From an uncultured bacterium (GTDB lineage: Bacteria > DYJV01): DNA of 61,942 nt. The notes beneath the pieces are model-generated. The model saw only the letters and a list, made by a program, of their open reading frames with translations. It made no database searches and had not been told where the DNA came from. The first letter of the stretch is position 1. Every line of letters begins with the position of its first letter. A program made the position numbers and the translations under genes. This document shows positions 4,319-7,228 of the stretch, in pieces. Location: NCBI GenBank assembly GCA_964543655.1, contig CAZIZE010000085.1, forward strand, positions 1 to 61,942, in the 5' to 3' direction.

Positions 4319-4895
4319 TTTTTCTCTTTCTAATTTTAATATAAGCAAATATTAAAATCACAACAAAAATTAAAGTTGCAATAGTGATATGATGTAAATA
4401 TTTTTTTATTAATGTTTCATTTTTGCCAATTAAATAACCAAGCAATGTAAGAATAAAAACCCATATACCTGCACCAAAAGCAGTGTAAATAATAAAGGTA
4501 AAAATATCCATTTTAGCAAGTCCTGCTGGTAGCGAGATATATTGCCTGACCCCAGGTATTAAACGTCCTGTAAATGTGGAAATATGACCATGATTTTCAA
4601 AAAAATTTTCTAACTTTTTCAACTTCTCCTCTTTAATTAATTTAAGTATCCCTGCTCTTCCAAATTTATAAGCTATAAAATAATTAAAAATCGCTCCTGT
4701 AATACTTCCTAATACTCCCATAAAAATAGCAAATATAAAGCTCATATCTCCTCTGTGCGCAAGGTAACCAGCTGGCACCATAACAACTTCACTTGGAAAT
4801 GGGAAAAATGAGCTTTCAAGAAACATCATAAAAAAAATCCCTAAATAACCGAGGGAGCCAACAGTATTAACAATGAAACTAACAATTTCATTCAT
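4290..4895 (-). CDS. dedA: DedA family membrane protein
   Basis: [12 protein letters not shown] and [16 protein letters not shown] DedA motifs; ATGA overlap with the upstream GNAT gene. Confidence 0.9.
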
Positions 4896-6013
4896 AAAAC
4901 TTCTCTTTCAAAAATTCTATATACTTTGTAAACTTCACCATTTAACTTTTTTAAAGCATTGTTCATTTTTAAATTATCTTCAAGTATCCAGGAGCATTCA
5001 CCATACCTGATACCTTTTTTAATAGCGTTTTCCACAACATCAGAGATTAATACATAGTCAATTCCTTTATTTCTGTAACCCTCTTTTAATCCAAGGGTGA
5101 TTATTCTCAGTTCTTTAATTTTCTTTTTGTTAAGCAATAATTTAAAAATTCCTGTTGGTAATAATTTTCCTTTTAACTTAATTAAAATTTTGTTAATATC
5201 AGGTAGGGCAACAATAAACCCAACCGGTTGACTATTAACTTCTGCTATTAATATCAAATCTTCATCAGCAAAATATTTTAACATATCAGAGGAATGAAAG
5301 AACTCCTCCCTATCCATAGGGACAAATCCCCAATTTTTCTCCCATGCTGAGTTGTAAATATCATAAATTATTCCAAGCTCTTTTTTAAATTTTTTGAAAT
5401 TTATCTTTCTAATATTTAAATTATACCGTTTTTTTAAAGTGCTTGATGCTTTTTTCAACCTTTTTAGATCCATCTTTTCAGTATCAAGCATATATGCAAG
5501 AAGGTCTTTAGCTTTATAAAATCCATTTTCCTCAATTAACTCCTGATAATATGGATAGTTGTAGGTCATCATAATTTTAGGAGGAGAATCAAACCCTTTA
5601 ACAAGCAAACCACATTCATGGTTGGTAGAAAAATTCATTGGTCCTCTTATTATCTCCATACCCTCTTTTCTTGCAAATCTATTAACAACATCAAAGAGAA
5701 GCTCAGCTATTTCTCTGTTGTAAATAGTATCAAAGTTTCCAAAAAAGCAGATTTTTTCATTGTGAAATTTATTGTGGGCAAAATCAACAATTGCAGAAAC
5801 TCTTCCACAGATTTCATTGTTATCTCGTAAAATAAAATTTTTAACCTTTGCATGCTTGAAAAATGGATTTAACTTTTCATTGAAAAACATAAGACGTTCA
5901 ATAAAAAGATGAGGGACGTAATTTGACTCTGTATGATAAAGCTCTAATGGAAATTTTATAAATGCTTTTAAATCACTCTTTTTTTTTACTTCTATAATTT
6001 CATACCTGCTCAA
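4892..6013 (-). CDS. Tandem-GNAT acyltransferase resembling bacterial ceramide synthase (bCerS family)
   Basis: [64 protein letters not shown]; directly downstream of the SPT gene. Confidence 0.75.
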
Positions 6014-6022
6014 AAAATCTCC

Positions 6023-7228
6023 TTAAATTAACTGAAGTTTTTTCCCAATTATTTCAAATTTTTCAAGAGCATAATCAATTTCATCAAAAGAATGGGTAGC
6101 CATCAGGCTAAGTCTAATTAAAGATCTATTAGGCGGGACAGCAGGTGGTGCTGCTGGATTAACAAAAATACCTTCTTTTTCCAGCATTTTGCACATTAAA
6201 AAAGCTGTTTCCATTGCTCCTACTATAACAGGAAGAATTGGTGTCTCTGTATCACCAAGATTAAAACCAAGATTTAAAAGTCCTTTTTTCATTCTATCTG
6301 TATTTTCCCAAAGTTTATCTATTCTTTCTGGCTCTGAATAGATAATTTTAAGAGCAGCAAGTACTGATGCTGCAGATGCTGGAGGCATACTTGCACTGAA
6401 AATATGGGCTCTTGAATTATGCTTGAGATAATGAATAACATCTTTACTTCCAGCAATAAAACCACCAACAGATGCAAGAGATTTGCTAAAAGTACCCATA
6501 ATAAGATCAACTCTATTAACTACATTAAAATGAGAAGCTGTGCCAGCACCATTTTTACCTAAAACACCAAGGCTATGTGCATCATCCACCATAACCATTG
6601 CATTGTATTTTTCAGCAATATCTAAAATTTCAGGTAATTTAGCAATATCACCCTCCATTGAAAAAACACCATCAGTAACTATAAGAATCCCTGAATCTTC
6701 TTTTTTAGATACAACTGAAAGCTTTTTTTCAAGGTCATCCATGGAATTGTGATTATAACGAATCATTTTAGCTGAAGATAAAAAACAACCATCAACAATA
6801 GATGCATGGTTAAATTTATCAGATAGAATGTAATCTCCTTTTCTCACTATTGTGGAAAGTACTCCCTGATTTACCATGAAACCAGTGGAATAAAGTAGAG
6901 CAGCTTCTTTACCAACAAATTCTGCAAGAGCCTCCTCTAACTCCACATGAATATCAAGTGTGCCATTTAAAAACCTTGAACCACCACATCCAGTTCCATA
7001 CTTTTTCAATGCTTCAATAGCAGCTTCCTTTACTTTGGGATGGTTGGTAAGGCCTAAGTAGCTGTTTGAGCCGAGCATGAGAACTTTTTTAGAAGTTTTA
7101 TTTTTTAAAGTCACCTTGGTATCTTGCTCTGATGTGATTTCTCTAAAATAGGGATAAAGCCCCTTCTCTTCCAATTCTTTAGCAATTACAAAGTTTTTTA
7201 TTCTGTCAAATATAGTTTTATTTTCCAT
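6023..7228 (-). CDS. spt: Serine palmitoyltransferase (PLP-dependent alpha-oxoamine synthase family)
   Basis: YPYFREI N-terminus, [43 protein letters not shown] (PLP lysine), IFSASMPP; resembles Bacteroidota-type SPT more than BioF/Kbl. ATG at 7228 preferred over the TTG at 7324. Confidence 0.8.

What the first reader, a model, noticed from the sequence alone, without database searches (positions are those of the whole stretch)
4892..7228. Candidate ceramide/sphingolipid biosynthesis operon in an apparent low-GC anaerobe
Seen: an alpha-oxoamine synthase with the YPYFREI N-terminus and [17 protein letters not shown] and IFSAS motifs lies 9 nt upstream of a tandem-GNAT protein. Known: the Caulobacter pathway uses Spt, a GNAT-fold ceramide synthase (bCerS) and a reductase (CerR); BioF/Kbl are not normally paired with such a GNAT. 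No CerR, ACP or acyl-CoA ligase is adjacent. Inference: the organism makes (oxidised) ceramides, which is poorly documented for lineages of this type, and either uses an unlinked reductase or stops at the 3-keto form.
Basis: partly seen in the sequence, partly recalled or inferred. Interest (0 to 1): 0.75.

Follow-up and report, generated by a model that had tools for sequence, protein, structure and literature searches.

The report
Spt–ceramide synthase–DedA sphingolipid operon
An uncultured, AT-rich hydrothermal-vent bacterium carries the first two genes of the known bacterial ceramide pathway fused into one operon with a DedA membrane protein. This is an ordinary new member of a widely distributed system, and the DedA link is a modest lead to the still-unknown lipid flippase.

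Summary
On the minus strand, a 401-aa alpha-oxoamine synthase (6023-7228) is followed after a 9-nt spacer containing an AAGGAG ribosome-binding site by a 373-aa protein (4892-6013). A confident model shows this protein to be a tandem GNAT.

The synthase belongs with characterised serine palmitoyltransferases. It is 61% identical to the Sphingobacterium multivorum enzyme, and E. coli Kbl and BioF fall outside its clade in 100 of 100 bootstraps.

The GNAT is a full-length homologue of E. coli YghO (37% identity, E 4e-87), which the literature equates with Caulobacter CC_1154, the bacterial ceramide synthase (bCerS). Among 80 genomes from many phyla, the same synthase lies within 500 nt of the GNAT in 51, and a CerR-like reductase lies within 5 kb in 42.

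The window holds no CerR, dedicated ACP or acyl-ACP synthetase. The last two are expected only for the alpha/beta/gamma-proteobacterial type. An unlinked reductase is common, so "stops at the keto form" cannot be judged.

Spt-like genes were already reported in about 40 phyla, including marine anaerobes, so this is a new member of a known kind. One unreported feature is a DedA gene translationally coupled to the GNAT in all six lineage members examined.

The parts
6023..7228 (-). Serine palmitoyltransferase-like alpha-oxoamine synthase (401 aa) of the Bacteroidetes/delta-proteobacterial SPT subgroup
   Evidence: The best NCBIfam model is NF047600 SerpalmtaseCFB at 606 bits (cut-off 640), against Kbl at 439-443 and BioF at 413. 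The best PDB match is S. multivorum SPT 8guh/3a2b at 498 bits, against 316 for the best BioF/Kbl chain and 263 for cysteate acyltransferase. It is 60.8% identical to S. multivorum SPT, and an NJ tree puts Kbl outside the clade in 100/100 bootstraps. The GTFSKSLAS motif is conserved.
6014..6022 (-). A 9-nt intercistronic spacer, GGAGATTTT, carrying a Shine-Dalgarno site (TAAGGAG together with the AOS stop codon) ahead of the TTG start of the GNAT
   Evidence: Read directly from the sequence.
4892..6013 (-). bCerS-family (YghO / CC_1154-type) tandem-GNAT N-acyltransferase, 373 aa; candidate ceramide synthase
   Evidence: BLASTP gives 37% identity over the full length to E. coli YghO (E 4e-87). 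It gives 32% to the N-acetyltransferase in the Sphingomonas parapaucimobilis spt-acp-lptFG cluster (E 9e-72). PMC9386255 lists yghO (ECD_02850) as the counterpart of CC_1154. The model has pLDDT 90.8 and a tandem GNAT fold. An SPT-like AOS lies next to it in 51/80 genome loci.
4290..4895 (-). DedA/VTT-domain inner-membrane protein (201 aa), translationally coupled to the GNAT by an ATGA overlap; candidate lipid flippase or scramblase of the operon (inferred)
   Evidence: Pfam VTT_dom, E 8e-24. The nearest NCBIfam model is UptA at 111 bits, cut-off 250. The 4-nt overlap is visible in the sequence. The gene sits directly downstream of the GNAT in all six lineage members examined, whose flanks differ. 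It is next to the GNAT in none of the 80 loci from other phyla.
3260..4348 (-). HD-domain protein (352-362 aa) overlapping the DedA 3' end. It is probably co-transcribed but is not a conserved part of the unit.
   Evidence: Pfam HD, E 4e-7, with weak similarity to the HD region of CCA-adding enzymes. It is present only in the window organism (L001, L002, L094) and absent from L087, L089 and L113-L115.
7229..7330 (.). AT-rich divergent intergenic region between the AOS and chorismate synthase (7331..8392, plus strand); presumed promoter region of the operon
   Evidence: Sequence. The sigma-70-like matches at 7338-7281 are no more frequent than in shuffled sequence, so the promoter is not shown.

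Best explanation
The locus is a compact sphingolipid-backbone operon, spt-bcerS-dedA, in an uncultured AT-rich diderm from a hydrothermal-vent metagenome. The proposed steps are all inferred from homology. (1) The PLP-dependent synthase condenses L-serine with a long-chain acyl-CoA to give 3-ketodihydrosphingosine. No dedicated ACP is needed for this SPT subgroup. (2) The tandem-GNAT bCerS homologue N-acylates that base in the cytoplasm to give 3-keto-dihydroceramide. (3) The lipid crosses the inner membrane, possibly with the help of the co-translated DedA protein. (4) A reductase encoded elsewhere, of CerR or KDSR type, converts it to dihydroceramide, unless this lineage keeps the keto form. 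Shown here: gene order, coupling signals, family membership by sequence, tree and predicted fold, and conservation of the gene pair across phyla and of the trio within the lineage. Not shown: any enzyme activity, the amino-acid or acyl substrates, the DedA role, or whether a reductase exists.
For: SPT identity: NCBIfam SerpalmtaseCFB scores 606 bits against Kbl at 439-443 and BioF at 413. PDB S. multivorum SPT scores 498 bits against 316 for BioF/Kbl chains. Identity to that enzyme is 60.8%, and in the NJ tree E. coli Kbl and BioF fall outside the clade in 100/100 bootstraps. bCerS identity: the GNAT is homologous over its full length to E. coli YghO (E 4e-87) and to the Sphingomonas cluster N-acetyltransferase (E 9e-72). 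YghO sits beside spt-acpR-epimerase-aasR and lptFG copies in E. coli PN43 and is listed as the counterpart of CC_1154 in PMC9386255. The fold is a tandem GNAT. Synteny: the AOS lies within 500 nt on the same strand in 51/80 loci, a CerR-like SDR within 5 kb in 42/80, and full AOS-GNAT-SDR(-PAP2) operons occur in Acidobacteria and others. Order of steps: B. fragilis cerS knock-outs accumulate 3-KDS and cerR knock-outs accumulate keto-dihydroceramide (bioRxiv 10.1101/2023.05.23.541633). Caulobacter Spt and bCerS are cytoplasmic and CerR is periplasmic (PMC11087976). Operon structure: an SD site in the 9-nt spacer and an ATGA overlap with dedA.
Against: The AOS scores 34 bits below the curated NCBIfam equivalog cut-off (606 against 640). 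No reductase was found in the window or in the roughly 5 kb of the contig read beyond its start, so completion to ceramide is unproven. No reference bCerS with an in vitro assay could be compared directly; the link runs through YghO and through synteny. In 27 of the 80 loci the GNAT has no AOS in the sequence fetched, although several of those loci are short and unlinked genes are known. DedA is linked only in this one lineage, which could be inherited gene order rather than function. No lipid data exist for this organism.
Confidence: 0.8

Rival explanations
1. The AOS-GNAT pair makes an N-acylated amino lipid that is not serine-derived, for example a capnine or sulfobacin-type sulfonolipid from cysteate, or a 1-deoxy base from alanine or glycine. 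The lipid would then look like a sphingolipid without being a ceramide.
For: AOS enzymes of this clade differ in amino-acid specificity, and sequence alone does not fix the substrate. The protein falls just below the SPT equivalog cut-off. Ding et al. describe (1-deoxy)ceramides from related clusters.
Against: The structurally solved cysteate acyltransferases score only 254-263 bits, against 498 for a characterised SPT. Identity to S. multivorum SPT is 61%. The partner GNAT is the family required for ceramide formation.
Confidence: 0.1
2. The pathway really ends at 3-keto-dihydroceramide. The lineage has no CerR or KDSR and uses the oxidised ceramide, moved outward by DedA, as a membrane lipid.
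For: No reductase is present in 62 kb, or in any of the six lineage contigs examined around the operon. In the CerR-linked operons of other phyla the position after the GNAT is often taken by CerR; in this lineage it is taken by DedA.
Against: Only fragments of the genomes were seen. In Bacteroidota, which make fully reduced ceramides, the three genes are reported not to be close together on the genome, and 12 of the 53 AOS-GNAT loci sampled lack a nearby CerR-like gene. No organism is known to keep keto-ceramide as an end product.
Confidence: 0.1
3. The AOS is a housekeeping Kbl or BioF enzyme, and the neighbouring GNAT and DedA genes are functionally unrelated.
For: JGI pipelines label homologues '8-amino-7-oxononanoate synthase'. 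The Kbl and BioF models still score above 400 bits.
Against: SPT models and structures score 160-180 bits higher. The tree excludes Kbl and BioF in 100/100 bootstraps. No tdh or bio genes are nearby. The AOS-GNAT pairing is conserved across many phyla.
Confidence: 0.03

Closest known systems
Sphingobacterium multivorum serine palmitoyltransferase (PDB 3a2b, 8guh) and the Bacteroidetes/delta-proteobacterial SPT subgroup
   Same: 61% identity over the full length, the same motifs, a soluble single-chain AOS, and no dedicated ACP or acyl-ACP synthetase gene alongside.
   Different: The window enzyme comes from an unnamed non-Bacteroidota lineage. It scores just below the NCBIfam equivalog cut-off. 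Here it is fused into an operon with bCerS, whereas the three pathway genes are reported not to lie close together in sphingolipid-producing Bacteroidota.
Bacterial ceramide synthase bCerS: Caulobacter CC_1154/CCNA_01212, E. coli YghO, B. fragilis BF9343_4218
   Same: Same protein family, at 32-37% identity over the full length to the proteobacterial members fetched here. The size is about 370-380 aa. It is linked to spt.
   Different: In Caulobacter, E. coli and Sphingomonas the gene sits several genes away from spt, beside lptF/lptG copies. Here it directly follows spt with a 9-nt spacer. No assay exists for this branch of the family.
Spt-bCerS-CerR clusters found in many phyla (Stankeviciute et al. 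2022; Ding et al. 2024)
   Same: The same first two genes in the same order. Equivalent operons were seen here in Acidobacteria, Zixibacteria, Ignavibacteria, Planctomycetota, Gemmatimonadota, Bdellovibrionia and others.
   Different: CerR (and PAP2) are missing, and a DedA gene takes the downstream position. Deferribacter desulfuricans also lacks a linked CerR and has a small permease there instead.
DedA/VTT superfamily lipid transporters (UptA undecaprenyl-phosphate flippase; eukaryotic TMEM41B/VMP1 scramblases)
   Same: VTT domain over residues 33-155, a size of about 200 aa, and the best NCBIfam similarity to UptA.
   Different: It is far below the UptA equivalog cut-off (111 against 250 bits). 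Its genomic partner is a sphingolipid pathway, not a cell-wall pathway. The papers searched here contain no DedA-sphingolipid link.

Membership tests
Bacterial serine palmitoyltransferase (Bacteroidetes/delta subgroup) | Alpha-oxoamine synthase fold with the conserved GTFSKS motif | tested here: met
   Pfam Aminotran_1_2, E 2e-62. GTFSKSLAS aligns with the same motif in S. multivorum SPT. That its lysine is the PLP-binding residue is family knowledge, not tested here.
Bacterial serine palmitoyltransferase (Bacteroidetes/delta subgroup) | Groups with characterised SPT rather than with Kbl, BioF, ALAS or cysteate acyltransferase | tested here: met
   498 bits to S. multivorum SPT, against 316 (BioF/Kbl), 263 (Cfat) and 207 (ALAS). 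The NJ tree puts Kbl and BioF outside the clade in 100/100 bootstraps.
Bacterial serine palmitoyltransferase (Bacteroidetes/delta subgroup) | Reaches the curated NCBIfam equivalog score (NF047600) | tested here: not met
   606.2 bits against a cut-off of 640. It is the best-scoring model by 163 bits but falls just short, so PGAP would give a generic name.
Bacterial serine palmitoyltransferase (Bacteroidetes/delta subgroup) | Condenses L-serine with long-chain acyl-CoA to give 3-ketodihydrosphingosine | not testable with these tools
   Needs an enzyme assay or heterologous expression with LC-MS.
Bacterial ceramide synthase bCerS (CC_1154 / YghO family) | Full-length sequence homology to members required for ceramide formation | tested here: met
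   37% identity and E 4e-87 to E. coli YghO; 32% identity and E 9e-72 to the Sphingomonas cluster protein. YghO is given as the counterpart of CC_1154 in PMC9386255. The CC_1154 sequence itself was not available.
Bacterial ceramide synthase bCerS (CC_1154 / YghO family) | GNAT acyltransferase fold | tested here: met
   Model pLDDT 90.8. Foldseek top hits are tandem GNAT proteins, E about 1e-13.
Bacterial ceramide synthase bCerS (CC_1154 / YghO family) | Genomic association with spt | tested here: met
   A 9-nt spacer in the window. AOS within 500 nt in 51/80 loci.
Bacterial ceramide synthase bCerS (CC_1154 / YghO family) | N-acylates 3-KDS or sphinganine | not testable with these tools
   Needs complementation of a cerS mutant or an in vitro assay.
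Complete bacterial ceramide pathway (Spt + bCerS + CerR) | A CerR (NDUFA9-like SDR) or KDSR reductase is encoded | tested here: inconclusive
   tblastn with two CerR-type queries found nothing in the window. The only SDR-type hit among the 38 window ORFs scanned with Pfam is a 598-aa Polysacc_synt_2 protein. The rest of the genome could not be searched.
Rhodobacteria-type sphingolipid cluster (spt-acpR-cerR-aasR, lptF2G2) | Dedicated AcpR and AasR genes next to spt | tested here: not met
   No hit in the window. The AOS is only 36-37% identical to the E. coli and Sphingomonas SPTs and branches apart from them.
UptA undecaprenyl-phosphate transporter (DedA superfamily) | Reaches the NCBIfam equivalog score | tested here: not met
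   111 bits against a cut-off of 250. Only superfamily membership holds (VTT_dom).

The most novel reading that the evidence does not exclude
The DedA protein encoded in the operon is the dedicated inner-membrane flippase or scramblase for the newly made (keto-)ceramide. It would deliver the lipid to the periplasmic face for reduction and export. This would be the first transporter assigned to that step in any bacterium and a new substrate class for the DedA superfamily.
Probability: 0.2. Interest if true: 0.6.

Novelty: new member of a known kind. Interest (0 to 1): 0.3.

Why it matters
The locus adds one more uncultured lineage, found in vent and other metagenome samples, to the growing list of bacteria with the genes for ceramide backbones. 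That list matters for interpreting environmental sphingolipid biomarkers. On its own this is incremental, because surveys have already shown Spt, bCerS and CerR across about 40 phyla. The useful by-product is a concrete candidate for an open step. Caulobacter work places Spt and bCerS in the cytoplasm and CerR in the periplasm, and states that no flippase is known (PMC11087976). A small DedA gene that stays coupled to bcerS while everything around the trio changes is a cheap hypothesis to test.

Tried and rejected
1. I tried to obtain Stankeviciute et al. 2022 (by DOI and as PMC8891067) for reference bCerS sequences. It is not held. The held supplement of Ding et al. is only a docx, which I did not open. 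I anchored the family instead through E. coli YghO and a Sphingomonas cluster found in the plasmid collection, together with the statement in PMC9386255.

2. Taxon identification failed. The window has no rRNA. ThrRS relatives at 74-87% identity are all unnamed, and the next hits, at 64-67%, carry mixed Desulfobacterota-type names. Only the sample type is known: a hydrothermal-vent metagenome.

3. Promoter and terminator scans around the operon found no more sites than in shuffled sequence.

4. A sulfonolipid (cysteate acyltransferase) reading was considered and rejected on score.

5. The HD-domain gene was considered as a fourth operon member and rejected as a conserved part, because it occurs only in the window organism.

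6. DedA linkage outside the lineage was searched for with an HMM over 80 loci. Only one distant DedA was found, about 7.6 kb from the GNAT.

7. A literature search for a DedA-sphingolipid link returned only unrelated eukaryotic reviews.
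Full report
**What is there**

The window is AT-rich, at about 29% GC. At its left end, four genes on the minus strand run head to tail.
- An alpha-oxoamine synthase (AOS) lies at 6023..7228. It is 401 aa from the ATG; the open frame continues to 7324, but the gene call on the source contig and the close homologue in L087 both start at MENKT.
- A 373-aa protein lies at 4892..6013 and starts with TTG.
- A 201-aa DedA/VTT-domain membrane protein lies at 4290..4895.
- An HD-domain protein lies at 3260..4348.

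The AOS stop codon and the 9-nt spacer together read TAAGGAGATTTT before the TTG, which is a Shine-Dalgarno site at the right distance. The stop codon of the 373-aa gene overlaps the DedA start codon as ATGA. Chorismate synthase is transcribed divergently from about 100 nt upstream.

**The synthase is an SPT, not Kbl or BioF**

- Among NCBIfam models, the best is the Bacteroidetes-type serine palmitoyltransferase equivalog NF047600, at 606 bits. Glycine C-acetyltransferase scores 439-443, BioF 413 and ALAS 284. The score is 34 bits below the curated cut-off of 640.
- Among solved structures, the two Sphingobacterium multivorum SPT sequences score 498 bits. The best BioF/Kbl chain scores 316, Sphingomonas SPT 288 and cysteate-C-fatty acyltransferase 254-263.
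- The residue-level alignment keeps the GTFSKSLAS motif. That its lysine binds PLP is family knowledge, not tested here.
- I built a neighbour-joining tree on 387 columns. It included E. coli Kbl and BioF, the E. coli PN43 SPT (its BL21(DE3) counterpart was assayed in PMC9386255), a Sphingomonas SPT, S. multivorum SPT and AOS genes taken from beside GNAT homologues. The window protein falls with S. multivorum SPT (60.8% identity). Kbl and BioF lie outside that clade in 100 of 100 bootstraps, and so do the alpha/gamma-proteobacterial SPTs.

**The second protein is a tandem GNAT of the bCerS family**

- Pfam sees only a weak Acetyltransf_1 match in the C-terminal half, and NCBIfam sees nothing.
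- An AlphaFold2 model built on 29 homologues is confident (pLDDT 90.8, pTM 0.89). Its nearest PDB folds are tandem-GNAT proteins aligned over almost the whole chain: 2wpw, 7q3a, 5kf1 and MshD.
- The family is large, with more than 4,900 scored homologues of about 370 aa.
- A tblastn search of the plasmid collection gave the anchor to known biology. The protein is 36-37% identical over its full length to E. coli YghO, and 32% identical to an N-acetyltransferase of Sphingomonas parapaucimobilis.
- In E. coli PN43, yghO sits beside a fatty acyl-AMP ligase, an NAD-dependent epimerase, an ACP, an AOS and extra lptF/lptG copies.
- In Sphingomonas, the homologue lies in a cluster that reads NAD(P)H-binding protein, ACP, AOS, lptF, lptG, desaturase.
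- PMC9386255 lists 'aca: CC_1154, yghO ECD_02850, Swit_3908 ...' as the acyl-CoA N-acyltransferase required for dihydroceramide synthesis. CC_1154 is the Caulobacter ceramide synthase (PMC11324152).
- Knock-out of the B. fragilis homologue accumulates 3-ketosphinganine, and knock-out of cerR accumulates keto-dihydroceramide (bioRxiv 10.1101/2023.05.23.541633).

The window protein is therefore a member of the bCerS family by sequence, predicted fold and genomic context. Its activity is inferred.

**The pairing is conserved and not a chance neighbourhood**

- A scan of one genome per GTDB species returned 80 loci. They come from Acidobacteriota, Zixibacteria, Ignavibacteria, Bacteroidota, Planctomycetota, Gemmatimonadota, Bdellovibrionia, Anaerolineae, Cloacimonadota, Nitrospirota and others.
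- An SPT-like AOS lies within 500 nt of the GNAT, on the same strand, in 51 of the 80 loci. It is upstream in 46 of them.
- A CerR-like SDR lies within 5 kb in 42 loci, and a PAP2 protein in 13.
- The proteobacterial dedicated ACP appears in none of the loci, and the acyl-AMP ligase in 2.
- Full AOS-GNAT-SDR-PAP2 operons occur in Acidobacteria, and an AOS-GNAT-SDR operon occurs in another MAG.
- Deferribacter desulfuricans SSM1 has the AOS-GNAT pair without a linked reductase, like the window.

**What is missing, and what that means**

No CerR-type or KDSR-type reductase was found in the 61.9-kb window or in the roughly 5 kb of the source contig read beyond its start. tblastn with an acidobacterial and an E. 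coli CerR found nothing. Among the Pfam hits of the 38 window ORFs scanned, the only SDR is a 598-aa Polysacc_synt_2 sugar dehydratase.

Of the 53 AOS-GNAT loci, 12 likewise lack a nearby reductase. Unlinked genes are also reported for sphingolipid-producing Bacteroidota (PMC11334938). The two options, an unlinked reductase or a keto-ceramide end product, therefore cannot be separated here.

The absence of an ACP and an acyl-ACP synthetase is expected. Those genes accompany only the alpha/beta/gamma-proteobacterial SPT subgroup (PMC9386255).

**The DedA link**

Six distinct members of the window's own lineage were examined: the window, L087/L088, L089/L090, L113, L114 and L115. Their identity to the window is 71-100% for the AOS, 57-100% for the GNAT and 70-100% for DedA.

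In every one, a 193-202-aa DedA gene follows the GNAT with an overlap or a gap of at most 7 nt. In L114 it is split by a frameshift. The neighbours change around this trio:
- Upstream: chorismate synthase, UvrA or an enoyl-CoA hydratase.
- Downstream: HD plus TrkH, TrkH alone, an aminotransferase, an aldehyde dehydrogenase or Cas6.

An HMM built from these DedA proteins finds none adjacent to the GNAT in the 80 loci from other phyla. The link is therefore lineage-specific.

DedA/VTT proteins are lipid transporters at the superfamily level. The nearest NCBIfam model is the undecaprenyl-phosphate transporter UptA, at 111 bits against a cut-off of 250.

Caulobacter work places Spt and bCerS in the cytoplasm and CerR in the periplasm, and states that no flippase is known (PMC11087976). 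A 2026 preprint assigns LptFGC paralogues to extraction from the inner membrane, not to flipping. I found no paper linking DedA to bacterial sphingolipids. That DedA flips the operon's product is a reasonable but untested idea, which I rate at about 0.2.

**Organism**

- The same sequence is held by a hydrothermal-vent metagenome run, and the contig is an 87.8-kb ENA assembly.
- ThrRS relatives at 74-87% identity are all unnamed. Named hits begin at 64-67%.
- The window encodes an outer-membrane efflux factor, a YhdP-like protein, cytochrome bd oxidase, ferritin and flavodoxin.
- It is therefore a diderm with some means of handling oxygen. 'Low-GC' is right, 'anaerobe' is unproven, and the phylum is unknown.

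**Comparison with what is known, and verdict**

The locus works like the first two steps of the bacterial ceramide pathway described in Caulobacter and Bacteroides. By sequence, it belongs to the Bacteroidetes/delta-type SPT group and to the bCerS (YghO/CC_1154) family.

It differs in its compact spt-bcerS arrangement, which is common outside Proteobacteria and Bacteroidales. It also differs in the absence of a linked reductase (a minority pattern, but not unique) and in the coupled DedA gene (not reported in the papers searched).

Ding et al. 2024 already reported Spt-like proteins in 38 phyla of an anoxic water column. The claim of poor documentation is therefore dated, and the finding is a new member of a known kind. 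Interest is modest at 0.3, and the DedA lead is the only part that could open something new.

Noticed in passing
window 8393-10486 (-): A 697-aa secreted protein combines a Spi-type inhibitor prodomain, a streptopain-like peptidase C10 domain and a lectin-like domain. It is followed by a 359-aa lipoprotein-like ORF with no family match.
   Followed up: no
window 16120-20892 (-): Cytochrome bd oxidase subunits I and II lie close to ferritin and flavodoxin genes. This oxygen-handling set sits poorly with a strict-anaerobe label.
   Followed up: partly
window 21468-25031 (+): A 1187-aa YhdP-like protein (a family linked to intermembrane phospholipid transport) is encoded in the most AT-rich stretch of the window, at 21-25% GC.
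   Followed up: no
window 27925-29103 (-); also L087 13278-14381: A cyclopropane-fatty-acyl-phospholipid synthase (CMAS) is encoded in the same neighbourhood in the window and in the closest relative. It is another lipid-modifying gene, with no shown link to the operon.
   Followed up: no
window 3260-4348 (-): An HD-domain protein overlaps the end of dedA. Only its HD region resembles CCA-adding enzymes, and no nucleotidyltransferase-domain match was reported. It is present only in the window organism.
   Followed up: partly
L089 9153-9941, L114 1966-2754, L115 1276-2064: In one subclade of the lineage, an enoyl-CoA hydratase gene sits directly upstream of the SPT gene. It may be an acyl-chain tailoring step. 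It is absent from the window.
   Followed up: no
L114 5119-5693: The operon's DedA gene is split into two frames in this metagenome contig. This is either an assembly error or a pseudogene.
   Followed up: no
L003 9116-9622 (Deferribacter desulfuricans SSM1): A 168-aa ArsP_1-type permease overlaps the stop codon of the bCerS-like gene, in the position that DedA holds in the window lineage. A small membrane protein after bcerS may be a recurring theme in loci without a linked CerR.
   Followed up: no
L043 6833-10079 (Cloacimonadota MAG): Two tandem paralogues of the GNAT (46% and 32% identity) are followed by a PAP2 protein, with no AOS on the 17-kb locus. This fits the report that Cloacimonadota keep spt apart from bcerS.
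   Followed up: no
plasmid collection records NZ_OL790696.1 and NZ_CP141089.1: Two E. coli 'plasmid' records of 4.8-4.9 Mb are evidently chromosomes filed as plasmids. Their yghO matches carry no annotation in the PLSDB table.
   Followed up: no
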